Shown piece after piece: positions 32,243-56,639 of a stretch of 64,000 nucleotides of DNA. The translations under genes and the position numbers were made by a program. Under the pieces are notes generated by a model that worked only from the letters and a program-made list of their open reading frames with translations, was not told where the DNA came from and ran no database searches. This DNA comes from a virus. Taxonomy: Duplodnaviria; Heunggongvirae; Uroviricota; Caudoviricetes. Where the stretch lies: the IMG/VR virus record IMGVR_UViG_2778261638_000005, positions 6,684 to 70,683 of that record. One strand, written 5' to 3'. The number at the start of each line of letters is the position of its first letter. Positions within the stretch are counted from its first letter, which is position 1.

Positions 32243-32251
32243 TGTTTCCCC

Positions 32252-32608: not shown

Positions 32609-32617
32609 AAATGCTCC

Positions 32618-35672: not shown

Positions 35673-35738
35673 AACACATGCTCCTCCTTTTCCTTTAAAT
35701 CAGGTTAAAAGGCGGTCTGAACCGCCTTTTAATGACGG

Positions 35739-42895: not shown

Positions 42896-42902
42896 AACCC
42901 TC

Positions 42903-43493
42903 TCATGCCTTACCCAGCAGCACATCACGGATACGCTGCTCCAGCTCTTCGCTGATGCCATCCTGCCCGCGCAGTTCTTCACTGACGGCGTTTGCCGCTT
43001 CTTCTGCGAATGCCTGGCGGATTTCTTTCTCGCGCCGGTGGCTGGACATTGCCGTGGATTCCAGACGCTGTGCCGCCAGCATGGCATTTTTCAGCAGGTC
43101 AATATCCACGTCAGATTCCGGGTTTTCGATTTGCCGCATCATGGCCTTAAAAAGCTGGCTGCGGGCCATTTCCAGAATCAGCTTTGTGGTTTCTCCCATT
43201 GGCTTGTCACCAAGTTCTGCGGTCAGTGCTGACGTCATTTCACGCATCTGTCGCAGGTTATGGCCTACCTGCTCGACGTTCGTCGCGTAACGGTTCAGAC
43301 CGGAACGGGAGAGTTTCATCTCATCCGGCAGGCCAGCGTCTTCAATCAGTACGTTAATTTCTTCCAGAATGCGGGCCTGTGGGATCGCTTTATCACGCAG
43401 CATTTCATGCAGCGTTTTACGTACGTTTTCCGGCAGTAAATCCACTTTTGAAGCCCGGCCCCGTGTTTTCCTGTCCATCACGCCTCCTGTCAT
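42903..43493 (-). CDS. Mu gp27-like protein (putative terminase small subunit)
   Basis: 196 aa directly upstream of the large terminase. Confidence 0.6.
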   Translation of the reverse strand: MTGGVMDRKTRGRASKVDLLPENVRKTLHEMLRDKAIPQARILEEINVLIEDAGLPDEMKLSRSGLNRYATNVEQVGHNLRQMREMTSALTAELGDKPMGETTKLILEMARSQLFKAMMRQIENPESDVDIDLLKNAMLAAQRLESTAMSSHRREKEIRQAFAEEAANAVSEELRGQDGISEELEQRIRDVLLGKA

Positions 43494-43780
43494 GCACGGG
43501 GACGAGGACGCTTGACACCGGCAACGCGGGCACGACCTTCCGCCACATCCTGACCTCGGGAGGTCAGCGTTACGACATAAAAGCCGCGCAGGTTTTCCAC
43601 GGTGACCAGTTGCTGCTCTGCCAGCCAGTCAATCTGGCCGCGAACCACATCGCGGGAAACGTTGTGTCCGTATGCATCCAGACAGTCCTGAAGGATGGAT
43701 TCGTTTGCTTCGTTATTGCAGTCCATCAGGGAACGCAGGATGACCAGACGACGGTCTTCGGTCAGAATATCGTTAATCAT
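43490..43780 (-). CDS. Mu gp26-like protein
   Basis: 96 aa, conserved position. Confidence 0.45.
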   Translation of the reverse strand: MINDILTEDRRLVILRSLMDCNNEANESILQDCLDAYGHNVSRDVVRGQIDWLAEQQLVTVENLRGFYVVTLTSRGQDVAEGRARVAGVKRPRPRA

Positions 43781-44094
43781 GAATTACTCCGGTTTACTGC
43801 GTTTTCAAGCAGCAGCTCCAGTTGATGGGAAAATGACTGCACCCGCTGGGACAGCACCCGGATATCGCCGGACAGCTCTGCAATTCGCAGGCGCATTTCG
43901 TGTACATCTTCTGTGCCAGGGATGCTGGCGTAGCGGGTTTCCATTTCGGTCATCCGGTTTTCAAGACGCTCCACACGCTCAGTGCTGGCAAAACTACGAC
44001 GCATTGCCCAGACGGCCCCACCGGCCACAACAGGCAACAGGTAAGGCCATAACGCTAAAACTGAAATCAAATCCATTATTCTGCTCCACGGCAC
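43777..44094 (-). CDS. membrane/coiled-coil protein (lysis-region)
   Basis: 105 aa with N-terminal hydrophobic helix then coiled coil. Confidence 0.4.
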   Translation of the reverse strand: MPWSRIMDLISVLALWPYLLPVVAGGAVWAMRRSFASTERVERLENRMTEMETRYASIPGTEDVHEMRLRIAELSGDIRVLSQRVQSFSHQLELLLENAVNRSNS

Positions 44095-44270
44095 CAGTGG
44101 CAGTAGTTCGCCATCGGCTGCTGTCTCAGCACATCAGGCCGCAGCTCACGACCGCAACCGGCACACAATACAGGCGGGTCATACGCCGCCGGGCGGGGAA
44201 TATCACGGGTATCCCCCTGCCAGAGTTCAGCGAGCAGCAGCGCCACCGCCCGGTTCTGGTCTTCGTTCAT
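44076..44270 (-). CDS. small Cys-pair protein (lysis-region)
   Basis: 64 aa with CAGCG...CHWC. Confidence 0.4.
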   Translation of the reverse strand: MNEDQNRAVALLLAELWQGDTRDIPRPAAYDPPVLCAGCGRELRPDVLRQQPMANYCHWCRGAE

Positions 44271-44568
44271 AAATTTCTTTCCTTCGGGTCTCCTGTTCCC
44301 GGACTGATGCCTTGTCGCGGTTGCACTGCCCGAGCGCCATCAACAGGTCAGCATTCCAGAGAAGGGATGCTCCCCACGTCAGGGGCTGTGGCATGGGCGG
44401 AACGGGCGTTGCTTCCGTCAGTTCTGCATCAGTTTCGGGCAGGATCACCACCGATGGCACGGGTGCGTTTTTCGAGTTCCCGCAACCTGTCAGCAGCAAC
44501 GGCAGGCACAGGACGAGTGCTGCAATTGTCACCGGTAATGGCGGTTGTAATTTTTTGTTTTGCATCAT
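44227..44568 (-). CDS. o-spanin (outer-membrane lipoprotein)
   Basis: Probable start MMQNKK at 44568; signal peptide with lipobox LLLTGC; partly embedded in the i-spanin gene in another frame. Confidence 0.6.
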   Translation of the reverse strand: MMQNKKLQPPLPVTIAALVLCLPLLLTGCGNSKNAPVPSVVILPETDAELTEATPVPPMPQPLTWGASLLWNADLLMALGQCNRDKASVREQETRRKEIYERRPEPGGGAAAR

Positions 44569-44815
44569 GATGTTCTGTCTCGTCTGCCAGCCGCGCGGCA
44601 CGATTTGCGGCACGGATAGCGGAAAATACCTGCATCGTCTGTTCCTGACCGTGTAACAACCATTCAGCCGTGTTGCGGGCCTGTTGCTCCGTCTGTAATT
44701 CACGGCGCAGCGTCTGGTTATCGTGGCGGGTGCTGTCCAGCCTGTGCCACAACACCCCGGACAGAACGGCGGCAAACACGGCTGCCAGCAGTAAACTTTT
44801 ACTGGCGAAGGTCAT
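44429..44815 (-). CDS. i-spanin (inner-membrane spanin subunit)
   Basis: 128 aa, N-terminal transmembrane helix and coiled-coil periplasmic domain; overlaps o-spanin and endolysin. Confidence 0.6.
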   Translation of the reverse strand: MTFASKSLLLAAVFAAVLSGVLWHRLDSTRHDNQTLRRELQTEQQARNTAEWLLHGQEQTMQVFSAIRAANRAARLADETEHHDAKQKITTAITGDNCSTRPVPAVAADRLRELEKRTRAIGGDPARN

Positions 44816-45317
44816 CCGCCCCCCTGATATTCCAGATAGCCATTTCCACTTCGCGACGGTTCATCAGTCCTTTCCATTTATGGCCTGCGGCAAACACCCA
44901 GCGGGCCATCTGGTCACGCGCTCCGGCGTAATCACCGGCATTGAGTTTTTTCAGCAGCGTTGATTTACTGAATGCGGTAACACCGGTGTTGAAAATAAAC
45001 GTTGCCAGCGCCGTTTTCTGATATGGCGTCAGCGGCACCCTGACAAGACGATCGATTGCCGCATAAACCGGTTTTAAATCACTGTCGAGAAGAGCCATAC
45101 ACTCCGCATGGCTGTAACGGCGCATTTCGATATCCGGCCCGGTATGTCCCACACAGACCGTAAGCACACCGGCAATATCGCGGTAAGGCATATAAGCGAT
45201 ATTTTCCAGATGGATCAGAGACTGACGGGTCATTTCCTGATAACCACCCACACCGCCACCGGCAATCGTTGCCGCCAGCAGTGCGGCTTTCAGTTTTTTT
45301 GGTATCCCCGCCATCAT
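44799..45317 (-). CDS. SAR endolysin, T4-lysozyme-like (Mu lys position)
   Basis: 172 aa; N-terminal signal-anchor-release type hydrophobic segment (LKAALLAATIAGGGVGG) followed by lysozyme-like domain; downstream of C. Confidence 0.75.
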   Translation of the reverse strand: MMAGIPKKLKAALLAATIAGGGVGGYQEMTRQSLIHLENIAYMPYRDIAGVLTVCVGHTGPDIEMRRYSHAECMALLDSDLKPVYAAIDRLVRVPLTPYQKTALATFIFNTGVTAFSKSTLLKKLNAGDYAGARDQMARWVFAAGHKWKGLMNRREVEMAIWNIRGADDLRQ

Positions 45318-45408
45318 GCTTCCCTGAAAAAATGCGCTGATGGCAGTCTAAAAAATCAGATGGCAGGTGCGGGATTATGGTGACAGGAAATAACCGGCAG
45401 GATGCCGG

Positions 45409-45831
45409 TTATTTTGGGCTTTCAGGTGAGAACAGATCAGGCTGATGACGTCGTGTATGCAGCTTTCTCTGGCGGGCAATAATCTGGTAGATCTGCGGCT
45501 GGGACAGGCGGTACTGGCGACGCAGTTCTTCCATGTTACGACCATTAAACTGGCAGTAAAGCAAATCGTCACGTAACGCGGTCAGGATCGTATCGCCGCA
45601 GGGGATGTAAAACTGCCGTCCGCCCAGAAAACAGGACAGGGCAACGGCCTGTTTACGGGCAAGCTCACGGGGATTGCTGACGTTCTGGCGTTTCAGTTCG
45701 TTTTCCAGAACATCAATCAGATCAACCACCGAACGGGGCCAGCGTGATTCCAGTTCCGGGGCCGGGATGTTATCAATATGTCCGATTAACTGGCGAATTG
45801 CCGGATCGTGTTCAAATAAATCATGCTGCAT
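45409..45831 (-). CDS. late transcription activator C (Mor/C family)
   Basis: 140 aa; paralogue of mor product at 46810-47199 with shared C-terminal HTH pattern (FNGRN...ELRRQY). Confidence 0.8.
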   Translation of the reverse strand: MQHDLFEHDPAIRQLIGHIDNIPAPELESRWPRSVVDLIDVLENELKRQNVSNPRELARKQAVALSCFLGGRQFYIPCGDTILTALRDDLLYCQFNGRNMEELRRQYRLSQPQIYQIIARQRKLHTRRHQPDLFSPESPK

Positions 45832-45843
45832 ATTTTCCCCCGG

Positions 45844-45963
45844 TTAACAGACAGAAAGATACACCACGGCACTGATGGTTATCAGAACCACAAGGGCAAT
45901 CACTTTTATCGCACTCATCAGCGTGGACGGCCCGAAACATTCATCACTGAATTTTCTGTACAT
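45844..45963 (-). CDS. small single-pass membrane peptide (not in ORF track)
   Basis: 39 aa MYRKFSDECFGPSTLMSAIKVIALVVLITISAVVYLSVC; sits between 76-aa gene and C. Confidence 0.35.
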   Translation of the reverse strand: MYRKFSDECFGPSTLMSAIKVIALVVLITISAVVYLSVC

Positions 45964-46174
45964 GGTATTTTTCTCTGTAGCGCCGGCAATGGTGGATAAT
46001 TTCTGGCATATCAACGGACTGCCAGCCTTTCATGTAATAGCTCCCGTGGGTGCCATCGTGCCCTGTGTAATCCATTGGCTTTGGTGGCGGGCCTCCGGCC
46101 TCCCGATGTAATACCTCCTGTTGTAAACGTTCGCGCCTGCCGAACTGAAAGGACGCATCCCACCCTTTACCCAT
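45944..46174 (-). CDS. hypothetical small protein
   Basis: Probable start MGKGWD at 46174, ATG overlapping upstream stop (ATGGGTAA). Confidence 0.4.
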   Translation of the reverse strand: MGKGWDASFQFGRRERLQQEVLHREAGGPPPKPMDYTGHDGTHGSYYMKGWQSVDMPEIIHHCRRYREKYHVQKIQ

Positions 46175-46727
46175 GCAGAACCTCCCGACAGGCGCTGGCG
46201 AGCAGATCCAGACGGTTAAACCAGCCATTCAGATATTTCCCCTGCGAGGCACTGGATTTGATAATCCCTGCGTAATAGCGGGAACGACGCAGGAAGCACT
46301 GCAACAGCAGCCAGTCAGTATCGGCACGCAGAACGGCTGCGCGTGTGTTTTTACCGACGATGCCATCATCATCAACACCTGCTGCCGCCTGGAGGATCTG
46401 AATCGCGCGTTTAACACCGAGCTGAACGGCAGCATCAAAAACGAATAAGGAAACGCCATCAGGCCATTCGTTACACTTTGCCGCCAGCCAGTAATCACGC
46501 CAGTAGATCTGCGCCGCCTGCTCGCGGGTTAAATCCTTAATGCGGGTATCAGGTTTTCCGTCACCGTTAACATCGGTTTTGCCATCAATAACGCCGTCGC
46601 GACGGTCAGAGATACCGTATTTCGTTTCGCCGCCACGGTCAGTGGGATCATCAACATATCCACCTTCAACATCAGGTCGTATAACGAAATTCAGCGAATG
46701 AAGGAATGCAGGGGAAAACTCAGGCAT
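46167..46727 (-). CDS. GH108-type muramidase with peptidoglycan-binding domain
   Basis: 186 aa; GYVDDPTDRGGETKYGIS motif characteristic of glycoside hydrolase family 108; C-terminal PG-binding-like region. Confidence 0.65.
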   Translation of the reverse strand: MPEFSPAFLHSLNFVIRPDVEGGYVDDPTDRGGETKYGISDRRDGVIDGKTDVNGDGKPDTRIKDLTREQAAQIYWRDYWLAAKCNEWPDGVSLFVFDAAVQLGVKRAIQILQAAAGVDDDGIVGKNTRAAVLRADTDWLLLQCFLRRSRYYAGIIKSSASQGKYLNGWFNRLDLLASACREVLHG

Positions 46728-46809
46728 GTTGCCCTCCAGTCATGAACGTTTTGTCGTCACAACAGAATATTGAGGGCGTAAAAAAAGCCGGATTAACCGG
46801 CTTTACTGT

Positions 46810-47199
46810 TTACAGAAGTGAAGGCTGGTACTGGCGGTATTTCAGCCGTCGCATCCGGCGAATGGCCTTGTAAACCGTATTGAAAGTGACACCATAACGG
46901 GTGGTCAGTTCGCTGACGTTGCGACCGTTAAAATCATTCCAGATACGCAAATCCCGAATCAGCGAGTCCAGAACCTGACCGCGCGGAATGTAGACCTGAC
47001 CGCCCCCCAGATGCTTACAGATAGCCACAACAATCTCCAGTGAATGAGCAGGATCAACACCCAGCCGGGACAATTCCCCGCGCAGTAAATCGTTCAGCTC
47101 CGCCAGCAGTGCCGGAAAGCGTGACGTATCCTCTGCGGGATTGTCAAGATGTGCCAGGATGGTGTCATCCTGCAAATCACCAAATAAATCTTCCGTCAT
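46810..47199 (-). CDS. mor: middle operon regulator Mor
   Basis: 129 aa Mor/C family; upstream of C and lysis genes. Confidence 0.8.
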   Translation of the reverse strand: MTEDLFGDLQDDTILAHLDNPAEDTSRFPALLAELNDLLRGELSRLGVDPAHSLEIVVAICKHLGGGQVYIPRGQVLDSLIRDLRIWNDFNGRNVSELTTRYGVTFNTVYKAIRRMRRLKYRQYQPSLL

Positions 47200-47747
47200 T
47201 GTGCCATCCTCCGCGTCTTTCTGGCATGGGCATAAGCCGCCGTCATGGCATCATAGCCGCGCAGTTCACGACCGGACGGACTGACCGGCAATGGAAGCCC
47301 GTGACGGGAAAAGGCTTCACGAATACAGCGGATGTGCCACTGCTTGAGTGTTTCGAGGACTGTCAGCAGCGTGTCGCCATGACACCACGCCAGTGTGGAA
47401 ACGCCCTGTCCGCCGTTGCGTTTCGCGGTCAGGCGTTGAACATATCTGTCCAGCGCCACATCACCGCCATCGGTAATAAAACCGTCTTCTGCCATCTGCT
47501 GCCAGATTTTATACACCTTCTCGCGGGGTGTGACATGCCCCTTAAACCGACGGCGTGGGTGTTTATTCTGCTTCTTAAAGCCGCGTTCTTTCATGGCATC
47601 GAGCACCTGTTTCAGTTGCGTAACCGTAAGCTCGCGGCAACTGATTTTGCCCGTTTTCTGCATCAGAAAAGCGCGGTAAGTGTCGTCGTCGAGTTGTAGA
47701 TCACGACGGGCGACATGAATTAATTTAATCAGGGATGTGCGACTCAT
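47196..47747 (-). CDS. Mu gp16-like protein (DUF1018-type)
   Basis: Probable start MSRTSLIKLIHVARRDL at 47747 with GGAGG RBS; track ORF extends further upstream. Confidence 0.65.
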   Translation of the reverse strand: MSRTSLIKLIHVARRDLQLDDDTYRAFLMQKTGKISCRELTVTQLKQVLDAMKERGFKKQNKHPRRRFKGHVTPREKVYKIWQQMAEDGFITDGGDVALDRYVQRLTAKRNGGQGVSTLAWCHGDTLLTVLETLKQWHIRCIREAFSRHGLPLPVSPSGRELRGYDAMTAAYAHARKTRRMAQ

Positions 47748-47820
47748 GATCGTACCTCCGGAAAGGGGGCGGTGCTGCAACACCGCCTGTACTATTGATA
47801 ACACTGAAAATGGAGACAAC

Positions 47821-48060
47821 ATGTCTGTAGAAAACAATGCGTCAATCACTTTTAACCTGGTTTCAGGTCTGATGGTGAAACTTGTTCGTAACAAGATTCT
47901 GACAAAGTGGGAAGCTCAATCCATACTGGCCTCTGCAATTCTTGAAAACGTTCAGAACCAGGAGGGGGTTACTGATTCGGATCTTGATGCACTTCGTCTG
48001 AAACTTGCTATGTCGGATTTCAGCGTTGAAAAAGAGCCTCCACAAGACGATCAGGCGTAA
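47821..48060 (+). CDS. hypothetical protein, opposite-strand gene inside Mu early region
   Basis: 79 aa from ATG 47821 with GGAG RBS 5 nt upstream; fills the only gap in the minus-strand early gene array. Confidence 0.4.
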   Translation: MSVENNASITFNLVSGLMVKLVRNKILTKWEAQSILASAILENVQNQEGVTDSDLDALRLKLAMSDFSVEKEPPQDDQA

Positions 48061-48316
48061 TCACGTCTGATGGTTTAAGTCCCAGCCTGCGGCGAATAAA
48101 TGCGTCGCGGGCTTTTTTGTTATCCAGTGAAACTTCATCTGCAATAATATTAATTTCATGCTGGATAATATTCACAGTAACACGAGCAGAAAGCCCTTCA
48201 CGGATAGCAATATCAATAATATCGCGCATACGCTCAAGCATTTTAGCTTTCACCAGTTCTTCATCCAGGTCTTTAGGCGTAAATTTAGTTTCATTATTCA
48301 TATTATTCACCTTCAC
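48020..48316 (-). CDS. hypothetical early protein
   Basis: 98 aa ORF. Confidence 0.45.
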   Translation of the reverse strand: MKVNNMNNETKFTPKDLDEELVKAKMLERMRDIIDIAIREGLSARVTVNIIQHEINIIADEVSLDNKKARDAFIRRRLGLKPSDVITPDRLVEALFQR

Positions 48317-48485
48317 AATTCATGCACGCCGTGTCATCGCCCATATCGCAGTGGTTGCATTTCAGCCCGCCACAATGAGGGCACTCTTTCAGATATTCAG
48401 GGGCTTCATTACCGCAGGTCGGACATGCCTGTTTCACCGTGGTAAATTTCCCCAGCCACGAATACGATGTTTCATTGTTTTCCAT
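48303..48485 (-). CDS. small zinc-ribbon protein
   Basis: 60 aa with CPTCG...CPHCG...CNHC...CMNC. Confidence 0.45.
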   Translation of the reverse strand: MENNETSYSWLGKFTTVKQACPTCGNEAPEYLKECPHCGGLKCNHCDMGDDTACMNCEGE

Positions 48486-49023
48486 TGTTTACCCCCGCCT
48501 GTTCCAGTGCCATAACTGGTGCGTCAGAACAGTCAAGAATGAGATAGCGCAGTACATGGTCGGTGATATTCCATGCGTTTGAGCTGCAAATAAAACGCCC
48601 TGGCCGGATATCAATATAAGCCATCACAAAACGGGGCATTCCCTGTTCGCACATCCTGTTATCCACTTCTGCAACGATGTGAACGGATTCACAGGTCAGC
48701 ACGCCCGTTGCAAACTCTTTTGCCAGCGCGGGGATGGTATTACCTTCCACCCAGGGTAATGAGCGACGCCAGTTGCACCACACCGCATCATCAACAGCAG
48801 GCTGCTCAGTTGCGTTTCGTCTTACAGGCGGCGTCGGACGTGGGCGCGGAACGTCATAAAATCCGTTGCATTCGGTGAGAACACCGGCATCAACCGCATC
48901 ACGCAGGAAATACACCATTGACGAGGGCAGCATATTCATTTTTTCAGCCAGAACCCCGCAGGTCAGACGCCCGTAAGCCCGTAATAATGTGCTGACACCA
49001 TTCAGAACTTTTGCATCAATCAC
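48472..49023 (-). CDS. hypothetical early protein
   Basis: 183 aa ORF. Confidence 0.45.
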   Translation of the reverse strand: MIDAKVLNGVSTLLRAYGRLTCGVLAEKMNMLPSSMVYFLRDAVDAGVLTECNGFYDVPRPRPTPPVRRNATEQPAVDDAVWCNWRRSLPWVEGNTIPALAKEFATGVLTCESVHIVAEVDNRMCEQGMPRFVMAYIDIRPGRFICSSNAWNITDHVLRYLILDCSDAPVMALEQAGVNNGKQ

Positions 49024-49026
49024 CGG

Positions 49027-49581
49027 TTATTCCTCCGTCAGCGCCACAAATTCAGAATGTTTAATGCGCTGGCATTCGGCGGGAACCGGTCCCTTCACTT
49101 CGCCAGCCAGAAGGTACACCGCAAACAAAATGCTGAATCCGTCACGGCTGTGGTGCATTTTCCACACGGACCTGATGTCAAACAGGTCAACGTCGGTAGC
49201 CACGTTAAGTTCATTGCACAGCCAGCGCGGAAAATCCGGGTTTTTTTCGAGCTGATTTTCACAGTCCCGGATGAGCTTCCCGTACTCACGGCCTGCCGGT
49301 ATTGTCATATCCGGCATTGCGCCCCATAACTGAATATCACCAATGAAAAGTGTCCTTGATTTAATCTCCCATCCTTCCGGTGGTAAGTAGCTAAACCAGA
49401 CATGCGTAACCCTCTCAGGCCCTTTGTCACCAGACAAAGACACACCGATTGCTTTCACTGATTGCTGTAATGACTCAATAATCTCACCACGCTTAACAGA
49501 AACCTCTTTCAGCCAGCGAATCGTATAACCGTTAGCGGCTGTGTCACTCAGTTTAAAATAAGCACATGCTTTCATTTTCAT
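49027..49581 (-). CDS. hypothetical early protein
   Basis: 184 aa ORF. Confidence 0.45.
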   Translation of the reverse strand: MKMKACAYFKLSDTAANGYTIRWLKEVSVKRGEIIESLQQSVKAIGVSLSGDKGPERVTHVWFSYLPPEGWEIKSRTLFIGDIQLWGAMPDMTIPAGREYGKLIRDCENQLEKNPDFPRWLCNELNVATDVDLFDIRSVWKMHHSRDGFSILFAVYLLAGEVKGPVPAECQRIKHSEFVALTEE

Positions 49582-49672
49582 TCTCTCCGGTTCTGATTAA
49601 GGCGCGAGTAGTCCTCTGACGCATCGCGCCATAATTAAACGAATGTGAATTAATTAAATATTAATGGTGGTA

Positions 49673-50197
49673 TTAAATACCGGCTTCCTGTTCAAACGGA
49701 ATAATGGAAAAATCTTCAATTCCCGATTTAACCGTAATTCCGGCAACACCTGCGACGGCTTTTGGTTCCAGTAAAATCGCCTCCTTGTTGATTTCCTGCT
49801 TCGTGCGAATAAAGCGTTGCAGGCCAAGACGCTCCAGCGTTTCCATCACTGCATCCATACCACGAATACTTACTGATGGTGGACGGACCCGCCACGATAC
49901 ATCACCGGTGACAAGATTCGCCGTCTTCACTTTGCCGCCGTTCGTCAGTTCGTCGCGGTTCGCTTCACACCATCCCTGAACGCCTTTTGAAAGGGTTTCA
50001 ATATCGGTTTTAATCGGTGCAATTCGGGCCGCAAATTTCTCCGTAATTTCCGCGATGGCATCATTCATTTCCGTTTCCAGACGTGATGCTTCGCGCTGTA
50101 AATCCCCGATGCGTTTAATATCGGTAATCACCGCATCGCGGTTTTGTGGCACATAAGCCGCTGCGGCACTCTTGATACGTTTTGCTGGTTTAGCCAT
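49673..50197 (-). CDS. gam: Gam, Ku-like DNA-end-binding host-nuclease inhibitor
   Basis: 174 aa; N-terminus MAKPAKRIKSAAAAYVPQNRDAV matches Mu Gam as recalled. Confidence 0.8.
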   Translation of the reverse strand: MAKPAKRIKSAAAAYVPQNRDAVITDIKRIGDLQREASRLETEMNDAIAEITEKFAARIAPIKTDIETLSKGVQGWCEANRDELTNGGKVKTANLVTGDVSWRVRPPSVSIRGMDAVMETLERLGLQRFIRTKQEINKEAILLEPKAVAGVAGITVKSGIEDFSIIPFEQEAGI

Positions 50198-50216
50198 AAA
50201 TTAAAGCTCCTGTTAA

Positions 50217-50516
50217 TTAATATCCGCTGTATACAATGCTGGATACAGCTCGATTGCTTAATTCCATCTTTCGGGCAATGACATGAATATCCAGTCCTTC
50301 TTTATAAAGTTCACGACATAAATATTTGTCGTGTTCACTGATTCGGTATACACACAATGATATTCCGTGCCTTCTGGCATGTGCCCGGAGGGCGGTTGTG
50401 GCGACTTTCAGTTTTTCCGCCATTTCTTCAACGGTCATTTTCCCGACGTTGGCTTCGATAAATTCCCGGTCTTCGCGTGACCAGCGCTTACGATTATACT
50501 TCATGTCAGCCACCAT
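50217..50516 (-). CDS. putative DNA-binding early protein
   Basis: 99 aa, HTH-like MTVEEMAEKLKVATTALRAHARRHG. Confidence 0.4.
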   Translation of the reverse strand: MVADMKYNRKRWSREDREFIEANVGKMTVEEMAEKLKVATTALRAHARRHGISLCVYRISEHDKYLCRELYKEGLDIHVIARKMELSNRAVSSIVYSGY

Positions 50517-50936
50517 TCAGTACAGCAGAGGCTCGCGCAGTGATGCCGGAATATGCCGCAGCGATAACTGAACCGCTTTCAGGGCAAGCGAGGAATAACA
50601 GCAGCGCGCCCAGCCTTTTGCCATTAACCGGTAATCGCGCCAGATACGCTGCCACATTTCACGGGCTTCAGGGTCTGATGCGCAGATGTATTCCCGGTCC
50701 ATGACGTACTCCCATAAATCCACGTTGAACGCACCGCCAAATGCAATGGCGCGGGATATGCTTTCGCCGCAATAACGCGCACAGATGCTGTAATGGTCGA
50801 AAGCAATCAGGTAAGTCTTTTCACCACAATCATCAACTTTTCGGGCGCAAATAAACTCGCGTAATTCACCACCGTTGTTATTGCGTTCCTGAATTCGGAT
50901 TAATGCCTGAATTTCATTTCGGATTTTGACGTTCAT
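50517..50936 (-). CDS. hypothetical early protein
   Basis: 139 aa, Cys-containing. Confidence 0.4.
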   Translation of the reverse strand: MNVKIRNEIQALIRIQERNNNGGELREFICARKVDDCGEKTYLIAFDHYSICARYCGESISRAIAFGGAFNVDLWEYVMDREYICASDPEAREMWQRIWRDYRLMAKGWARCCYSSLALKAVQLSLRHIPASLREPLLY

Positions 50937-50956
50937 TGTCAGCGTTCCTTTGCGAA

Positions 50957-51226
50957 TTAATGTTTAACCACATTCACCGGACGTGGTACTAAATCACATT
51001 CAGCTTCCATACCCACTTTCTTCATAGTGGTCAGCATCTCATCTTTGGCCTTTTTAATAATTTCAGGAGCCATAGTCAGGACTATATTTGCCAGTAAATC
51101 ATGAGGCCCGGTATTTTCCGTTGGCGAGATATCTGCAAGACATGCTTTTGCATCCAGAACTTCTCTGCGCCCATTGCAACTGTCACTACTTTCCAGCCAT
51201 GTAAACTCAAAGATAACCTTTGCCAT
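50957..51226 (-). CDS. hypothetical early protein
   Basis: 89 aa ORF. Confidence 0.4.
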   Translation of the reverse strand: MAKVIFEFTWLESSDSCNGRREVLDAKACLADISPTENTGPHDLLANIVLTMAPEIIKKAKDEMLTTMKKVGMEAECDLVPRPVNVVKH

Positions 51227-51246
51227 TTTTCTTCTCCTTATTGATT

Positions 51247-51492
51247 CTAAATAACTGCGCTGGCTTTTACCTTCGCGCCTTTTACCTGCTTAAAGAAAAC
51301 TGCGCTGCACCACGGACAACATGTCAGGGAATCCCGAATTTCCTTTTCGGGTGAGCATTGCGTCATAATCTGTTCACCGCATCCTGGGCATTTATATGTC
51401 GTCAGCGGCACCCCGTGGCACTGACAGTGTTTAACCCATTCAATATATTTTTCAGCTTTAATACACATCGTTATCTCCAGATAATCTGGCAA
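51247..51492 (-). CDS. small zinc-ribbon protein
   Basis: 81 aa, CQCH...CPGCG...CCPWC. Confidence 0.4.
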
Positions 51493-51698
51493 CCATTAAG
51501 ACGGGCCGTCCATACAGAACGGGCCACCCCGGACTTATGCTCCATAATTCTGACCGCGTTTTTTACCAGTTCCACCGGTGGGTAAGTGATTTCAAGAATC
51601 GGACGCGCCACGCCGAGATATGATTCATTTACATGACTCCCGCGCGCCTGTAACCAGTTCTGCGCATCCGTTGCCATTTTTATATTTCGTGACATCAT
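51471..51698 (-). CDS. small early protein at the Mu kil position
   Basis: 75 aa, first gene downstream of B. Confidence 0.4.
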
Positions 51699-51709
51699 TA
51701 TTTATCCCC

Positions 51710-52642
51710 TTACCACCAGTTCAGTAATTTCGGGTTGCTGTAAACCTCTTTAAAAGCTGCTTTAATGTAGCCTTTGGATAGAGGAACGCCTTTCCCGCTG
51801 GCAGCCAGCCACGCCTGATTCAGCGTATGAGTTAATACACGTAATGCACCTGGTTTTTCCGCGATGCTCTGCATGAGTGATAATTCATCTTCGCCCTCAA
51901 TGCCCCAGGCTTTCGCAATTGCCACCACGTCAGCCTTTTTGGCTTTACGTAGTTGCTTTGTTCTGGCGAAACGACTGAACAAACGTGCAAGGTCATCTGT
52001 TCCCCGGTGTGTGGCTTTGGCTAACTGGTGTGGGTTGCCAATCAATACCATCCCGACGCCGGTTGCATCCTGAATGGCGCGTAACTGCTCCAGCCCGTCC
52101 ATGCTCAGGTGGTCAGCTTCATCCACAATAACCAGACCGCGTGTGCCATTCAGTTTTTTGCGAATGGCGCGGGTCAATGCGCCTTTATTCCTTTGCGGAT
52201 TATCAATTCCCAGCGCGTCTGCCAGCTCCAGCAGACACTCAGTCACTGTTGAGTGTGCAGGGGAAAGGGTCACCATCCAGGTATTAGATACACGGTTACT
52301 GTATTCACGGGCCGCAACGGTTTTACCAACACCCGGCACACCAACCAGAACGCTGATACAGCCCATAACACGCACGGTCTGAAACAGCTCGCGCAAATCA
52401 CGGAGGGTTTGTGTTTCCACAAGTTGTGGTGCGCCAGGTAACTCCAGACTTTTTTGCCAGCTCTGATGCCACATCAGTAATTTGTCATGCATCCCTTCGG
52501 TATCACCTTTGTAACGGCCTTTGCGAAGTTCAGAAAGAGTGGCCTCCGACACCCCCGCTTCTTTAGCAATAGCGCTTTGTGTTTTTACGCCGTCAGTAAT
52601 AAGTGTGTTAATCGTGTTGAAAACATCATTAATATCGGTCAT
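51710..52642 (-). CDS. B: transposition ATPase B (target DNA activator)
   Basis: 310 aa; Walker A GVPGVGKT, Walker B LVIVDEADHL; N-terminal HTH; downstream of transposase. Confidence 0.9.
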   Translation of the reverse strand: MTDINDVFNTINTLITDGVKTQSAIAKEAGVSEATLSELRKGRYKGDTEGMHDKLLMWHQSWQKSLELPGAPQLVETQTLRDLRELFQTVRVMGCISVLVGVPGVGKTVAAREYSNRVSNTWMVTLSPAHSTVTECLLELADALGIDNPQRNKGALTRAIRKKLNGTRGLVIVDEADHLSMDGLEQLRAIQDATGVGMVLIGNPHQLAKATHRGTDDLARLFSRFARTKQLRKAKKADVVAIAKAWGIEGEDELSLMQSIAEKPGALRVLTHTLNQAWLAASGKGVPLSKGYIKAAFKEVYSNPKLLNWW

Positions 52643-52715: not shown

Positions 52716-54803
52716 TCAGGCCAGCGGATCATCCTGTTCCTGTATGGCTACAAGCTTCTGCAAACCCAGCCTGAAATCGCGTTCATAATCTTCGTCGTAA
52801 TCCTCCTCATAATCCTGTTGCTGGATGGTTACCGTATTGCCAACCGGGCGATAAACATTATCCAGCCAGGGTTCAGCCTGTTTGTGCTCCAGTATCTGAA
52901 TGCCTTCATCCTCAGCATCACGAATTTTTTCCTCAGCACGTTTGCGCATTCCTTTAATACGCTGCTGTTGTTTGTGATATTCAGCACTGACAGCAAAGGC
53001 TGCGCGTTTATTGCCGTTCCATATCGCCTCACAGATAAAGCTGCCGTCCTTGCGACGTACCGTAATTCGCTCGGCGTCATGAATGTCATAACTGATAAGT
53101 ACTTTGCGACCGTGTTCGTCACGCAACTCCGGCGCGTAGTAAATATTGTTCAGCCACTGAATTTCGCACCGTCTTACCGGGCGTTCCACCATCGGGCGGA
53201 ACATGTCGCGCAGCTCAAGATCACTCAGCCACTCAATTTCGGTGCCTTCTTCTGCCAGGCGTTTTTTTCTGAACTCTGCCGGGCTGTAATGCCGCCCGTT
53301 CGGTTTCATTGGCAGCTCAGAATGCGGGCGGTTGTTGTACCATTCCACGCCTTCACGAATAGCCTCAATAAGCTCCGCCCACGATGGTAGCTCGCGCATT
53401 GCAGCTTTCTGGCGGTCGTTCAGAGGCTTGTCCTGTTGCATGGCGTTAAACGCTGAACGCAGATCACGGTTAAGTACACGCAACGATTCCCGGTCAGCAC
53501 CCTTGCCAAAATAGGTGCGATACCTCCTGGCTATACGCATCGGCAGTGTCCGGTTCAGGCGTTCAATAATGCCGCGCCCCTGTGGATTACCGGCAATACC
53601 GGTAGGGTGTTTAATCCCCAGGCGGGGCAGAATACCCACGATCTCTTTGTCCAGTATGTCAGCCGTTTCACCAGAACCATTATCCGAGTAATACAGAAAC
53701 GGTTTTCCGTGGTTGCGAATGCCGTGCTGTATCGCACCGGCAACGGCGAACACGTTCTCGGCAAGGTCAAGACTCCAGCCAACAACAAACCGGGTTCCAC
53801 CGTCGATCACAAATGTAACTTCCGGTGAGAATGGACGCCCGTGGATCGGATGTGCACATTTCAGCTTCATACCGTGACCGTCACCAATCCAGACATAATT
53901 CACCGGCATAGCTGTCCAGTCGCGGCGGGTGAATCCTTCAAGCTGACGGTATTCACTGCCGGTAACGCGCCCTTTTTGTTTCACCACTTCCGGCAGTTTT
54001 TTCATGGCATACCGGACAACATCATAGGAAGGCATCACCTCCAGCATGTATGGTTCGTCCGCATGGCGACGCTGCCAATCAGCGACAAAATCCTCATAGG
54101 CTTCAGACATAGGCCTGCCGTTAGCCTGACGATACTGCGCCAGAAATTCAGGCAGCCAGCTAATTTCTTCCGGTTTTATTTCGTCGCGCTTTCCTGGTGC
54201 CAGTAACAGCAGTCGTTCTGCGGCATTCTGTGCTTTGTTAAACGCAGCTATCCAACGTTTGAGCGTAATTGCGCTCAGAGTTCGCTCTTTTCCTTTACGG
54301 GCATTAGCAGTAATGACCAAAGATTCCAGGCGTTCTTCCAGGTTACCCTGCGCTAACCGCGACACAATAAAACGTATAGCGCTGGCACAACTGAATCCCG
54401 GCTCCTGGCTAATTCGTAGAACTTCACAGACAAGAGCAATGCGCGCTTCTGCAACTTTACGTTGATTTTCCGTAAGCGCATTCAGACGCTCTTCTACCAA
54501 TTGTGGCGAACCGCGATATGCCTCAACAGGCTGTACAACATTTTGTTTGCGTTCACGCTTTACAGGAGGCTGGGTAGTTATCTCCCGCGGGGCGCTTGCC
54601 ATCAGTTGAGCTACATGTCGCTCACGTAACGCCCGTTGTGTAACCGGAGGGAGGCAGTCGATGCTGTATTCAATGGTTTTTGAACCCGCACGTTTGCGCC
54701 TGAAATGCTCAGATGAGGCCAGTTTCCTTATGGAATACCGCACCCCTTGCGCAGTTCCCGGCATACCTGGTAACCCTACAAGCTCATTAACTGATACAAA
54801 CAT
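52716..54803 (-). CDS. A: DDE transposase A
   Basis: 695 aa; Mu-A-like catalytic core; N-terminal end-binding domain diverged from Mu A as recalled. Confidence 0.9.
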   Translation of the reverse strand: MFVSVNELVGLPGMPGTAQGVRYSIRKLASSEHFRRKRAGSKTIEYSIDCLPPVTQRALRERHVAQLMASAPREITTQPPVKRERKQNVVQPVEAYRGSPQLVEERLNALTENQRKVAEARIALVCEVLRISQEPGFSCASAIRFIVSRLAQGNLEERLESLVITANARKGKERTLSAITLKRWIAAFNKAQNAAERLLLLAPGKRDEIKPEEISWLPEFLAQYRQANGRPMSEAYEDFVADWQRRHADEPYMLEVMPSYDVVRYAMKKLPEVVKQKGRVTGSEYRQLEGFTRRDWTAMPVNYVWIGDGHGMKLKCAHPIHGRPFSPEVTFVIDGGTRFVVGWSLDLAENVFAVAGAIQHGIRNHGKPFLYYSDNGSGETADILDKEIVGILPRLGIKHPTGIAGNPQGRGIIERLNRTLPMRIARRYRTYFGKGADRESLRVLNRDLRSAFNAMQQDKPLNDRQKAAMRELPSWAELIEAIREGVEWYNNRPHSELPMKPNGRHYSPAEFRKKRLAEEGTEIEWLSDLELRDMFRPMVERPVRRCEIQWLNNIYYAPELRDEHGRKVLISYDIHDAERITVRRKDGSFICEAIWNGNKRAAFAVSAEYHKQQQRIKGMRKRAEEKIRDAEDEGIQILEHKQAEPWLDNVYRPVGNTVTIQQQDYEEDYDEDYERDFRLGLQKLVAIQEQDDPLA

Positions 54804-54805: not shown

Positions 54806-55042
54806 TTATGCCACCTTACGAGCGTAACGGCTGGGCCAGATCTCCTCCGGCGCAACACCAATAGCATCAGCAATAATGCGCTCATATTTTGGGCATTTGC
54901 GGTACAGGGCATTCTTTAAAGAATCCTGGTTTAAACCGGCTTCAATGGACAGAGAGCGTAAAGTAAAACCTTTTACATGCACCGCCGCGACAACATGCGC
55001 GGGGTGCCAGTCCTGTTTAACAACTTCATTTATAGACATCAT
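54806..55042 (-). CDS. ner: Ner-like DNA-binding regulator
   Basis: Probable start MMSINEV at 55042 with AAGGA RBS; C-terminal EEIWPSRY matches Ner family. Confidence 0.8.
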   Translation of the reverse strand: MMSINEVVKQDWHPAHVVAAVHVKGFTLRSLSIEAGLNQDSLKNALYRKCPKYERIIADAIGVAPEEIWPSRYARKVA

Positions 55043-55182
55043 TCGTTTATCCTTAAAAGTTATCTGCGCGGATAACACCGCCGGATAATCTCTACAGATA
55101 AATATTTGATCACTACAAAAGAAAAGTAAAGGTGTTTTATCTCTTTCTTTGGTTGTTTTTATCTACAAAAGGATATTTCTTT
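55043..55182. promoter_or_regulatory. divergent early promoter/operator region between ner and c
   Basis: 140-bp AT-rich intergenic region between divergent repressor and ner genes. Confidence 0.5.
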
Positions 55183-55767
55183 ATGAATCATATGGTTAAC
55201 AGAAAAGAAAGAAGCACTGAAAAAGAAAGTGATTTTTCTTTTCCTGTGTTTCAAAAAGAAAGCATTAAAGAGCGCCTAGCCATGCTAATGCGCGGGCGCT
55301 CCAAGACTGCCGTGGCGAAGGCGTGGGGGCTACCGTTCTCAACACTTAACAACTACTTTGAGAAAGATGCGACACCATCTCTACAAGTAGCTAGTCAGAT
55401 TGCTTTTGCAGAAGGGGTGAGCATTGATTGGCTTGTTTTTGGCAAGGAGGATATAGAACCAATATCACCTAAAATAGATGAAAACGTCCAATTGCCCCTA
55501 GATATAACGCTACAGCGCCTTCTTGCTATACTAAGTGCTTTAGAAGCATCAGAGGCAGAGCGATTATCAAAAATCCTCGCGCTAAATGGAGCTAAGTACT
55601 TGTCACGGTTACTTGAACCAGAGAATCAAGAACTAATCCAACTTGAAGGACGAAAACGTGCAGCAGCTCTACTTTTAGATCATTTATCGGATGAAAGAGT
55701 TAGAGAGATTTTGGCAGAAATTGAAAGCGATAAACTCTCAAGTAGTTTAGAATCGAAGGCGGGCTAA
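55183..55767 (+). CDS. Mu-type c repressor
   Basis: 194 aa from ATG 55183 (AAGGA RBS); divergent from ner, reads toward left end. Confidence 0.7.
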   Translation: MNHMVNRKERSTEKESDFSFPVFQKESIKERLAMLMRGRSKTAVAKAWGLPFSTLNNYFEKDATPSLQVASQIAFAEGVSIDWLVFGKEDIEPISPKIDENVQLPLDITLQRLLAILSALEASEAERLSKILALNGAKYLSRLLEPENQELIQLEGRKRAAALLLDHLSDERVREILAEIESDKLSSSLESKAG

Positions 55768-55794
55768 TTCCAATAGCCCGCGGCTGGTTTTTTA
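55760..55794 (+). terminator. terminator-like hairpin after repressor gene
   Basis: GCGGGCTA-N7-TAGCCCGC stem followed a few nt later by TTTTTT. Confidence 0.35.
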
Positions 55795-55829
55795 ACCTGT
55801 TTAAAACGTTAAAATCGCAGAAATCAGTA

Positions 55830-56000
55830 GTATCAAATATTTTTTCGTTTTTAGCTTTCTTTGCGACAGTAGTATCAAATCACATGTTGTGCGCATAACA
55901 CTGTTTTACGTCATAACTGTTTGTTTTATCCCATCAAATCCCGTTTGATCCACTTTCCTCCCGGATTTTTCAGCAGTATCAAATGATTTACCTCTCTATA
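55830..56000. repeat. left-end transposase-binding repeats (three GTATCAAA cores, attL-like)
   Basis: Cores at 55830-55837, 55872-55879, 55976-55983; spacing 42 and 104 bp mirrors Mu L3-L2-L1; adjacent sequence GAAAAATCCGGGAGG...GATGGGAT resembles the Mu left end. Confidence 0.6.
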
Positions 56001-56639
56001 GCACCCGAAACTTCGCCCTGGTGGATGGTAAACGTCTCTCCCTGTTTCCGGAGGCGTACTCATGGGTTCTGGCTTTGCCTGTATGCTGATCACCGGATCG
56101 GGTATCTGCTGTCCGGAAGCCACCTTTTTCGCCCAATCATCGAGCAGCCTGCGCGCGTGTTTCTCAACCTCAATCTCGCTAAGCTGGCGCTGATACATTG
56201 CACGGCGGGTATCACATACGACCCAGTACATAACCGGATGCCGCCACGGGAATCTTTCGGGACCACCAGGATATAAACTTTTTTCCTTGCTGTACCGGTG
56301 AAACTCCGTCATCACATCGTCAATGGTGACGCCAAGAACCATCTTGCTGTCTTTGCACCACTTGATGAATTGCCCTGGCGACGGCCAGAACGGAGAATCA
56401 CTGGCGCGGGCGTGGCGCATACCAGCAGAAACCTGTTCACGGGTTCGGATCCCCCCTTCAGCAAACGCAGCAATCCACTGCTGTTTTGCAGCAACTTCCT
56501 GCTCTGGCGTCTTCAGGTTGGTTACCACTGCCGCCGGAAACAGTTGTTTCAACTGTTTGAAAAGGGCATCAACAAGCCTCTCTGCTGACATGTTCACTAC
56601 GTTGTCATTGTTGGTGTACTGATGCTCATAACCTGACAT
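55926..56639 (-). CDS. lambda P-like replication protein, 3' end interrupted by Mu-like insertion
   Basis: FAEGGIRTREQVSAGMRHARASDSPFWPSPGQFIKWCKD matches lambda P core; the last 24 codons are encoded by the Mu-like left end. Confidence 0.75.
   Translation of the reverse strand: MSGYEHQYTNNDNVVNMSAERLVDALFKQLKQLFPAAVVTNLKTPEQEVAAKQQWIAAFAEGGIRTREQVSAGMRHARASDSPFWPSPGQFIKWCKDSKMVLGVTIDDVMTEFHRYSKEKSLYPGGPERFPWRHPVMYWVVCDTRRAMYQRQLSEIEVEKHARRLLDDWAKKVASGQQIPDPVISIQAKPEPMSTPPETGRDVYHPPGRSFGCYREVNHLILLKNPGGKWIKRDLMG

What the first reader, a model, noticed from the sequence alone, without database searches (positions are those of the whole stretch)
55830..56003. Left end of the Mu-like element: attL-type array with a diverged core
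Three GTATCAAA cores are spaced like Mu L1, L2 and L3, and the inner sequence GAAAAATCCGGGAGG...GATGGGAT resembles the Mu left end as I recall it. The outermost about 25 bp do not match the Mu L1 sequence. The transposase N-terminal region, which binds the ends, is also diverged from Mu A as recalled, while Gam and Com look Mu-like. This suggests a mosaic relative with altered end specificity.
Basis: partly seen in the sequence, partly recalled or inferred. Interest (0 to 1): 0.6.

Follow-up and report, generated by a model that had tools for sequence, protein, structure and literature searches.

The report
Left end of a Mu/Sp18 hybrid prophage
This is the real left end of an active Mu-like prophage that keeps phage Mu's late genes but has taken its transposition genes and both end sequences from the Sp18 prophage family; it is a clear example of phage mosaicism, not a new kind of system.

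Summary
Three GTATCAAA cores lie at 55830, 55872 and 55976. Three more lie in mirror orientation at the other end, at 19109, 19131 and 19166. Their spacing is close to that of Mu L1-L2-L3 (104/42 bp against 105/40).

The element is 19092-56000 (36,909 bp), so the true left terminus is 56000, not 56003. It sits inside a lambdoid replication gene P and is flanked by a 4-bp duplication, GCAC.

From just after gene B to the end of mom the DNA is 97-98% identical to Mu. attL, c, ner, A, B and the last 97 bp (attR) are replaced. The transposase is 22-25% identical to MuA along its whole length, not only at the N-terminus, and 77% identical to the transposase of prophage Sp18 (E. coli O157 Sakai).

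Sp18-family ends share the invariant core TTTGATAC. They have no match to the MuA site consensus, start 5'-TA or 5'-TG, and gave 4-bp (not 5-bp) duplications in all 7 independent insertions checked.

The Mu-like inner stretch is a 43-bp island, 84% identical to Mu nt 25-67. It lies next to at least three unrelated L1 types but is missing from Sp18. I infer it is the Mu-type packaging (pac) site.

Near-identical phages are already published (Yersinia phages vB_YpM_5 and vB_YpM_6). Interest is moderate to low.

The parts
55970..56000 (-). Left terminus and site L1. The minus strand reads 5'-TATAGAGAGGTAAATCATTTGATACTGCTGA, with the core TTTGATAC at 55976-55983. The last element base is 56000.
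   Evidence: The junction was mapped against an uninterrupted P gene and against three other insertions of the same element whose flanks diverge exactly after ...CTCTATA. IMG/VR copies L060, L063 and L064 also diverge at this point.
55928..55970 (-). Mu-like island in the L1-L2 spacer, proposed as the pac site. Its 37-bp pattern CCGGGA-N6-T-N-GA-N5-CGG-N-A-N6-GGGAT occupies 55928-55964.
   Evidence: It is 84% identical to Mu nt 25-67 (alignment). The same pattern sits next to Mu-type, window-type and Tongde-type L1 (with possibly other types in L043, L044 and L059) in IMG/VR contigs and in Kp4866-3. It is absent from Sp18 and JNE122137.
55872..55879 (-). Core of site L2 (TTTGATAC), 104 bp inward of the L1 core.
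55830..55837 (-). Core of site L3 (TTTGATAC), 42 bp inward of the L2 core.
55759..55795 (+). Terminator-like hairpin with a T-run, directly after the repressor gene and between c and L3.
55183..55767 (+). Repressor c, of CI/HTH_3 type and not the Mu c type. The ORF could also start at GTG 55132.
   Evidence: Pfam PF07022 and PF01381. The start at 55183 follows RefSeq annotation of identical copies. It is 42% identical to Sp18 c and has no real match to Mu c.
55043..55182 (.). The c-ner intergenic region, the presumed operator and early-promoter region, with repeated CTTTTGTAG and TCTGTAG motifs.
   Evidence: its function is inferred from its position only.
54806..55042 (-). ner homologue.
   Evidence: Pfam PF13693 at 4e-25. 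It is 46% identical to Mu Ner and 56% to Sp18 Ner.
52716..54803 (-). Transposase A, 695 aa, of the Sp18 family. The DDE triad is D308, D374 and E414, read from alignment to MuA D269, D336 and E392.
   Evidence: hhalign finds it colinear with MuA over residues 1-697 against 1-662, probability 99.6%, 25% identity.
51710..52642 (-). Transposition ATPase B, 310 aa.
   Evidence: Pfam Phage-MuB_C and AAA_22. It is 44% identical to MuB and 70% to Sp18 B.
19189..51703 (-). Mu-derived body from kil to mom, 97-98% identical to Mu apart from a few small substitutions and the G segment.
19092..19188 (+). Right end (attR). It reads 5'-TAAAGCGCGCAAAATCATTTGATAC..., with cores at 19109-19116, 19131-19138 and 19166-19173. 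The spacing is 22 and 35 bp, and all three cores are in direct orientation.
19088..19091 (+). Target-site duplication copy 1 (GCAC).
56001..56004 (+). Target-site duplication copy 2 (GCAC). It is host DNA, part of the lambdoid gene P.

Best explanation
Window 55830-56000 is the functional left end (attL) of a 36.9-kb transposable prophage, 19092-56000, that reads on the minus strand.

The phage is a hybrid. Its body, from kil to mom, is phage Mu. Its immunity and transposition module (c, ner, A, B) and both ends belong to the family typified by prophage Sp18 of E. coli O157 Sakai.

The family's transposase is a distant homologue of MuA with the same domain order. It is inferred to bind three sites at each end whose conserved core is (A)TTTGATAC(Y), to pair the ends, and to join the 3'-terminal A of each end to target phosphates 4 bp apart. 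That would give the 4-bp duplication seen here; Mu gives 5 bp.

The stretch between L1 and L2 that resembles Mu is not a transposase site. It is most likely the pac site, from which the Mu-type terminase starts headful packaging. On that reading it has to stay Mu-like because the terminase genes here are Mu's.

Shown: the exact ends, the duplication, the site array, the mosaic boundaries and the mobility. Inferred: binding of A to the cores (about 0.85) and the pac role of the island (about 0.6).
For: Ends and duplication:
- An empty-site comparison gives element 19092-56000 with GCAC duplicated.
- Six further independent insertions also show 4-bp duplications, never 5-bp: ydcO TCAC, patD TTAA, glpT GGCT, E300082 TGCC, Sp18 TAAA and JNE122137 AGAG.
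- GenBank LC727895 itself annotates a 4-bp duplication.

Mobility:
- Copies 99-100% identical lie at different loci in different E. coli genomes.
- Isolated phages vB_YpM_5 and vB_YpM_6 are 99.5% identical across attL-c-ner (PMC10434027).
- The exact A protein occurs on hundreds of contigs, with source names from E. coli and Salmonella; 97%- and 94%-identical versions carry Shigella names.

Site array:
- There are 6 cores in mirror arrangement.
- The core is TTTGATAC in 18 of 21 sites (ATTGATAC or TTTGATAT in three Kp4866-3 sites) from four transposase lineages that are 56-78% identical to each other.
- The first core always starts at nt 18 from the end, and R1-R2 are always 22 bp apart.
- The same right-end architecture is found in other Enterobacterales.

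Mosaic structure:
- Identity to Mu is 97-98% from element nt 4298 to 36812 and absent elsewhere, apart from the island.
- A is 22-25% identical to MuA and 77% to Sp18 A. B is 44% identical to MuB and 70% to Sp18 B.
- The DDE residues align, and the domain order is colinear with MuA. The N-terminal domain matches MuA I-alpha, PDB 1tns.

pac inference:
- The island sits at the position where I recall the Mu pac site was mapped, about nt 32-54 (Groenen and van de Putte 1985; Harel et al. 1990; from memory). PMC2837660 confirms that packaging starts at attL.
- The island accompanies three unrelated L1 types (Mu, window, Tongde), with possibly further types in L043, L044 and L059. It is absent from Sp18 and JNE, whose transposase is the closest relative.
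- The small terminase subunit is 99.5% identical to Mu's here and 57% in Sp18.
- A putative recognition segment of that subunit reads KLSRSGLNRYA in Mu and the window and KLSRTGLNRYA in Kp4866-3, which has the island. In Sp18 it reads QLSPAAISREA.
Against: There is no binding or footprint data. The conserved core is only about 10 bp and no second half-site is visible, unlike the 22-bp bipartite MuA site.

The Mu pac coordinates rest on my memory, because no open paper giving them could be found. Which Mu protein reads pac is not established as far as I know.

Whole-protein identity of the small terminase subunit does not track the island. Kp4866-3 is 46% identical to Mu and has the island; Sp18 is 57% identical and lacks it. 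Only one short segment of the protein tracks it.

The island is 84% identical to Mu while its surroundings are unrelated, so a recombination patch cannot be fully excluded.

The 5'-TA termini contradict the reported conservation of 5'-TGT in Mu-like phages (PMC4378225). The junctions are consistent in every copy examined, however.
Confidence: 0.85

Rival explanations
1. The element is a Mu-lineage phage in which only the outermost left-end site and the end-binding N-terminal part of MuA have diverged, giving altered specificity by local drift.
For: The site spacing is nearly that of Mu. The island in the spacer is Mu-like. The late genes are Mu.
Against: All six sites lack the Mu consensus. 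A is 22-25% identical to MuA along its full length, and no region exceeds 37%. B, ner and c are also replaced. The module is 70-77% identical to Sp18's for A and B (42-56% for c and ner). The duplication is 4 bp.
Confidence: 0.03
2. The Mu-like island is conserved because it serves transposition, not packaging. It could, for example, be a docking or bending site for HU, IHF or an accessory protein in the L1-L2 loop.
For: In Mu the L1-L2 spacer is where HU bends the DNA in the transpososome (established knowledge, from memory). The island lies in the same spacer in every lineage examined.
Against: It is absent from Sp18 and JNE, which have the closest transposase and the same site array. HU has no sequence specificity. 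No IHF consensus is visible by eye. The L1-L2 distance varies from 70 to 106 bp in the family, while the island keeps its 37-bp register.
Confidence: 0.15
3. The island is a functionless relic: a short patch of Mu sequence left by an old recombination or gene conversion at the left end.
For: Phage mosaics often carry such patches. The element clearly recombined with Mu elsewhere.
Against: Its identity to Mu is 84%, against 97-98% for the recently shared parts. The same motif skeleton is kept in lineages whose intervening bases differ, namely Mu, D108, the window, Tongde, Kp4866-3, L043 and L044. That pattern indicates selection on CCGGGA, CGGGA and GGGAT.
Confidence: 0.1
4. The array belongs to a decayed, immobile prophage remnant, and the repeats are fossil sites.
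For: The prophage sits inside another prophage, which is a common graveyard for phage remnants.
Against: The c, ner, A and B reading frames are intact and both ends are complete. The duplication is perfect. Near-identical copies lie at other loci. Plaque-forming phages are 99.5% identical across attL-c-ner and 97% at the transposase (PMC10434027).
Confidence: 0.02

Closest known systems
Bacteriophage Mu and D108 attL/attR with MuA and MuB (Muvirus mu)
   Same: Each end carries three transposase sites. The spacing is nearly the same: L 104/42 against 105/40, and R1-R2 22 against 22. The L1-L2 spacer holds an island 84% identical to Mu nt 25-67. The transposase has the same domain order and DDE triad. 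There is a MuB-like AAA+ partner. Everything from kil to mom is 97-98% identical DNA.
   Different: The site sequence is TTTGATAC, not the Mu consensus ...RAARYRCGAAAR. The termini are 5'-TA, not 5'-TG. R3 is direct, not inverted. The duplication is 4 bp, not 5 bp. A is 22-25% identical to MuA and B 44% to MuB. The repressor is CI/HTH_3 type rather than a Mu c type related to MuA domain I-alpha.
Prophage Sp18 of E. coli O157:H7 Sakai and the CC119 Mu-like phages (e.g. Mu_JNE122137 in LC727895)
   Same: A is 77% identical and B 70%. TTTGATAC cores sit at 18, about 113-122 and about 164 from the left end, and at 18, 40 and 75 from the right end. The right end starts TA(A/T)AGCGCG. The duplication is 4 bp.
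   Different: Sp18's late genes are only about 69% identical to Mu in DNA, with the small terminase subunit at 57% and the large at 73%. Its L1-L2 spacer lacks the Mu-type island and carries an ATCACCTGT...ACAGGTGAT inverted repeat instead. Its left end starts 5'-TG. Domain I-alpha of A (48%) and the c repressor (42%) differ, which implies a different immunity.
Yersinia phages vB_YpM_5 and vB_YpM_6 (MT374853, MT374854; PMC10434027)
   Same: It is essentially the same phage. Identity is 99.5% over attL-c-ner, 97% for A and about 98% for the late region.
   Different: Those are virion isolates described for host range and temperature dependence. The paper does not analyse the ends, the transposase lineage or the duplication. 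The window copy is a prophage inside a lambdoid P gene.
Yersinia phage vB_YpM_Tongde (MT591577) and Klebsiella phage Kp4866-3 (OK490420)
   Same: Both have Sp18-family A, 56% identical to the window's (tblastn gave 57%). Both have TTTGATAC cores and the CCGGGA...GGGAT island just inside L1.
   Different: In Tongde the junction with Mu lies inside A, about 88 nt before its stop, so Tongde uses MuB. Kp4866-3 has a 70-bp L1-L2 distance and distant late genes.

Membership tests
Mu/D108-type att ends (MuA substrate) | MuA-binding consensus (YMyNwRAARYRCGAAAR core) at L1-L3 and R1-R3 | tested here: not met
   A scan with up to 3 mismatches recovers all six Mu sites. In the window's ends it finds none, apart from one spurious hit on the wrong strand.
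Mu/D108-type att ends (MuA substrate) | Termini 5'-TG...CA-3' | tested here: not met
   The left end reads 5'-TATAG and the right end 5'-TAAAG.
Mu/D108-type att ends (MuA substrate) | 5-bp target-site duplication | tested here: not met
   The duplication is 4 bp here and in 6 other insertions of the family.
Mu/D108-type att ends (MuA substrate) | Three sites per end, with L1 set apart from L2-L3 and R1-R2 adjacent | tested here: met
   The spacings are 104/42 and 22/35 bp, against Mu's 105/40 and 22. R3 is direct rather than inverted.
Mu/D108-type att ends (MuA substrate) | Cognate transposase is MuA (a close orthologue) | tested here: not met
   Identity to MuA is 22-25%. There is no sequence match in the end-binding region, aa 101-260.
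Sp18-family transposition module | A and B proteins closely related to Sp18 ECs_4945 and ECs_4946 | tested here: met
   A is 77% identical and B 70%. DNA identity in the A core is about 80% to about 240 E. coli genomes that carry Sp18-like phages.
Sp18-family transposition module | TTTGATAC cores at fixed positions at both ends (first core at nt 18; right end at 18, 40 and 75) | tested here: met
Sp18-family transposition module | 4-bp target duplication | tested here: met
   plus the GenBank annotation seen
Sp18-family transposition module | A protein physically binds the TTTGATAC sites | not testable with these tools
   This needs a footprint or EMSA.
Transposable (Mu-like) phages in general | DDE transposase with a Mu-type C-terminal domain, plus an AAA+ MuB-like target protein | tested here: met
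   Pfam PF09299, PF02316, rve and PF09077. D308, D374 and E414 align to the MuA triad.
Transposable (Mu-like) phages in general | Insertion at many unrelated sites | tested here: met
   Insertions are seen in gene P, ydcO, patD, glpT, a monooxygenase gene, sorM and an Stx phage.
Mu-type pac site | Located just inside L1 at the left end, with sequence like Mu nt about 31-67 | tested here: met
   Identity is 84% over 43 bp, and the 37-bp motif skeleton is kept.
Mu-type pac site | Required for, and sufficient to start, headful packaging by the Mu terminase | not testable with these tools
   Only comparative support is available.

The most novel reading that the evidence does not exclude
The Sp18-family enzymes are natural MuA homologues that differ from MuA in three ways. 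They read a short TTTGATAC core, they accept 3'-TA as well as 3'-CA termini, and they attack the target with a 4-bp rather than a 5-bp stagger. Separately, the 37-bp CCGGGA...CGGGA...GGGAT island is a portable Mu-type pac signal. It is independent of the transposase sites and has been retained or exchanged across at least four end types. If both hold, these natural hybrids show which cis elements at a Mu end belong to transposition and which to packaging.
Probability: 0.45. Interest if true: 0.5.

Novelty: new member of a known kind. Interest (0 to 1): 0.35.

Why it matters
Mu is the reference system for DDE transposition, and its ends carry several functions packed together: transposase sites, a bending region and pac. 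This hybrid and its relatives work as natural swap experiments.

The transposase sites, the terminal dinucleotide, the duplication length, the repressor and B all travel with A. The spacer island appears instead to track the packaging specificity. In Tongde, the C-terminal tail of A travels with MuB.

This gives concrete, testable assignments of cis elements to trans factors. It also provides a ready pair of related enzymes, with 5-bp and 4-bp stagger and CA or TA termini, for structure-function work.

For annotation, these prophages are common in E. coli and Salmonella. Their ends will be set wrongly if Mu rules (5'-TG, 5-bp repeat) are assumed. The Sakai Sp18 feature, for example, is offset at both ends by this analysis.

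Tried and rejected
- Aligning the terminal 240 bp to Mu and D108 gave only the island.
- Scanning for the Mu site consensus found nothing.
- I tested 5-bp and 6-bp duplications and ends shifted by one base. None fits any of the seven insertions.
- Literature searches for the Mu pac coordinates, and for a reported 4-bp duplication in Mu-like or Sp18 phages, found nothing usable. The guessed PMC id for the 'Transposable Phage Mu' review is not held.
- A first, over-specific right-end pattern found nothing in genome contigs. A looser three-core pattern found 17 loci.
- I expected whole-protein identity of the small terminase subunit to track the island. It does not, because Kp4866-3 has lower identity than Sp18 yet carries the island. 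Only one short segment of the protein tracks it.
- A sequence search against solved structures matched only domain I-alpha and the integrase-like core, so it gave no information on the end-binding domains.
- No structure prediction was run. The available homologues were 94% or more identical to the query, too shallow for a useful alignment.
- An IHF consensus in the island was looked for by eye and not seen.

Full report
**Observation**

The sequence at 55830-56003 contains GTATCAAA at 55830, 55872 and 55976. The window holds 8 copies against 2.0 expected, and none of 100 shuffles reached 8. Three of the remaining copies lie on the opposite strand at 19109, 19131 and 19166. A 26-nt inverted repeat links 19091-19116 with 55976-56001. 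The two clusters are therefore the two ends of one element that reads on the minus strand. Gene order agrees: c at 55183-55767 (+), ner at 54806-55042 (-), a 695-aa transposase at 52716-54803 (-) and a MuB-like ATPase at 51710-52642 (-).

**Exact ends**

DNA searches against complete E. coli genomes split both junction queries into an element part and a host part. The host part is the replication gene P of a lambdoid prophage. Alignment with an uninterrupted P gene shows ...CATGCAC|TAAAGCGCGC... on one side and ...CTCTCTATA|GCACCCGAA... on the other. The element is therefore 19092-56000, 36,909 bp, and GCAC is duplicated at 19088-19091 and 56001-56004.

Three other genomes carry the same element (99-100% identical) in ydcO, near patD and in glpT. 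Their flanks diverge at exactly the same bases, and their duplications are TCAC, TTAA and GGCT. Three more distant relatives also give 4 bp:
- E300082: TGCC.
- Sp18 of O157 Sakai: TAAA.
- Mu_JNE122137: AGAG, which the GenBank depositors themselves annotate as a 4-bp duplication.

No 5-bp reading fits any of the seven insertions. The left end begins 5'-TATAG and the right end 5'-TAAAG. Further copies in IMG/VR also diverge from their flanks immediately before TAT. One paper states that 5'-TGT is conserved at the ends of Mu-like phages and that 5'-TG matters for Mu transpososome assembly (PMC4378225). This family departs from that rule. Right ends start TA in the window, Sp18, JNE and Kp4866-3. 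Left ends start TG in Sp18, JNE and Kp4866-3 and TA in the window type and in Tongde.

**Comparison with Mu and D108 using real reference sequences**

The outer 30 bp do not align to Mu or D108. Window 55928-55970 aligns to Mu nt 25-67 at 84%. A scan with the consensus used in the D108 record recovers Mu L1 (11-27), L2 (116-132), L3 (156-172), R1 (11-27), R2 (33-49) and an inverted R3 (56-72). It finds nothing real in the window's ends. The window's cores start at 18, 122 and 164 from the left end and at 18, 40 and 75 from the right end, all in direct orientation. The spacing is therefore Mu-like (104/42 against 105/40, and 22 against 22), but the sequence and the orientation of R3 are not.

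**Mosaic structure**

A blastn of the whole element against Mu gives 97-98% identity from element nt 4298, just after B, to nt 36812, the end of mom. The exceptions are a few small substitutions and an inverted, 87%-identical G segment. There is no similarity in nt 1-4297 or in the last 97 bp, apart from the island and a 35-bp match inside B.

Protein identities:

| Protein | vs Mu | vs Sp18 |
|---|---|---|
| A | 22-24% by BLASTP | 77% |
| B | 44% | 70% |
| Ner | 46% | 56% |
| c (CI/HTH_3 type) | no real match | 42% |

A profile comparison shows A to be colinear with MuA over its whole length, probability 99.6% and 25% identity. D308, D374 and E414 align with MuA D269, D336 and E392. The first 60 residues match the MuA I-alpha structure 1tns. 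Against Sp18 A, the I-alpha-like part is the least conserved (48%). The presumed end-binding part, aa 101-260, is 76% identical to Sp18 and has no detectable match to MuA.

The change is a wholesale module replacement, not divergence of L1 and one protein domain.

**The site family**

Twenty-one sites were compared, from the window, Sp18, Tongde and Kp4866-3, whose transposases are 56-78% identical to the window's. Eighteen have the core TTTGATAC; three Kp4866-3 sites differ by one base (ATTGATAC or TTTGATAT). The core is preceded by an A and an A/T-rich stretch and followed by Y-R. No second conserved half-site is visible. The first core always starts at nt 18, and R1-R2 are always 22 bp apart. 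L1-L2 varies from 70 to 106 bp. The three-core right-end architecture also occurs in Pluralibacter, Leminorella, Sodalis, Klebsiella, Limnobaculum, Arsenophonus and Edwardsiella genomes.

**The Mu-like island**

The skeleton CCGGGA-N6-T-N-GA-N5-CGG-N-A-N6-GGGAT is shared by Mu, D108, the window, E300082, Tongde and Kp4866-3. A scan of viral contigs finds it just inside L1 next to three clearly distinct L1 types:
- the Mu type;
- the window type, in L060, L063 and L064;
- the Tongde type, in L047 and L055.

L043, L044 and L059 show it next to other upstream sequences that may be further L1 types, and a few GC-rich hits look like chance.

The island is absent from Sp18 and JNE, although their transposase is the window's closest relative. 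So the island does not follow the transposase.

From memory, the Mu pac site was mapped to about nt 32-54 of the left end (Groenen and van de Putte 1985, a reference confirmed to exist; Harel et al. 1990). An open paper confirms that packaging starts at attL (PMC2837660). The window's small terminase subunit is 99.5% identical to Mu's, and Sp18's is 57%. Whole-protein identity does not track the island, because Kp4866-3 is 46% identical and has it. One segment that looks like a recognition helix does track it:
- Mu and the window: KLSRSGLNRYA.
- Kp4866-3: KLSRTGLNRYA.
- Sp18: QLSPAAISREA.

I conclude, as an inference at about 0.6, that the island is the Mu-type pac site.

**How it most likely works**

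A binds the six TTTGATAC sites, pairs the ends, nicks at the terminal A and joins the ends to target DNA captured by B, 4 bp apart. The c repressor and Ner control the early promoter in the 140-bp c-ner region. After replication, the Mu-type terminase recognises the island just inside L1 and packages a headful rightwards.

Shown: the anatomy, the duplication, the mobility and the mosaic boundaries. Inferred: the binding, the chemistry and the pac role.

**What is known, and novelty**

Sp18 has been known as a Mu-like prophage since the Sakai genome was published. Sp18-like phages are reported as mobile in STEC (PMC10132054, PMC7430833). Phages 99.5% identical to this element across attL-c-ner are published as Mu-like Yersinia phages, without analysis of the ends or the transposase (PMC10434027). 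The 4-bp duplication is annotated in GenBank. The element is therefore a new member of a known kind. I could not find the following described in the searchable literature:
- the explicit anatomy of the ends;
- the TA termini;
- the 4-bp stagger as a family trait;
- the separation of the pac-like island from the transposase sites.

They are of moderate interest to specialists.

Noticed in passing
L014 4995-5082 (Yersinia phage Tongde, end of gene A): Tongde's A belongs to the Sp18 family (56% identical to the window's A). Its last ~29 residues (...DEYLNHSLDILEQNRRKK) and everything downstream, including MuB, are Mu at 97.6% DNA identity. The junction lies inside A, so the C-terminal tail of MuA stays with MuB.
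   Followed up: partly
L018 about 255-300 (D108, just downstream of mom): D108 carries a degenerate copy of the window-type R3 site (TATATGATACTAATC against TATTTGATACTAATC). It lies between mom and the D108-specific gene 56, far from D108's real Mu-type attR. This hints at past exchange with a TTTGATAC-type phage.
   Followed up: partly
window 18900-19091 and 56001-56708: The Mu-like prophage interrupts the replication gene P of a lambdoid prophage, so this is a prophage inside a prophage. No complete E. coli genome in the collection has this particular insertion.
   Followed up: partly
window 55043-55182: The c-ner intergenic region has repeated CTTTTGTAG and TCTGTAG motifs, which are candidate operators. 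The repressor is CI/HTH_3 type, so unlike in Mu it is not a paralogue of the transposase's I-alpha domain.
   Followed up: no
window 21391-23840: The invertible G segment is in the opposite orientation to the Mu reference and only 87% identical to it, so the tail-fibre variable parts differ from Mu's.
   Followed up: no
L016 271 and 39025 (Sp18 in Sakai NC_002695.2): By the 17-nt rule and the TAAA duplication, Sp18 runs from TGTAACC... to ...GCTATA. The annotated prophage feature starts 1 nt late and ends 5 nt late.
   Followed up: yes
L014 about 1648-1654 and L047: Tongde and IMG/VR contig L047 share 7 nt (CCCTGCT) immediately outside the inferred left end, although the flanks further out differ. 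L055 does not share them. This could be chance, a target preference or a slightly different true end.
   Followed up: no
L025-L041: The three-core right-end architecture (TTGATAC-15-TTGATAC-27/28-TTGATAC) occurs in Sodalis, Arsenophonus, Edwardsiella, Pluralibacter, Leminorella, Limnobaculum and a Klebsiella species, with several copies in some genomes.
   Followed up: no
window 46176-46761, 47790-48275 and 49039-49591: Short segments of the semi-essential early region have no Mu counterpart, so there are further small mosaic replacements within the otherwise Mu-like body.
   Followed up: no
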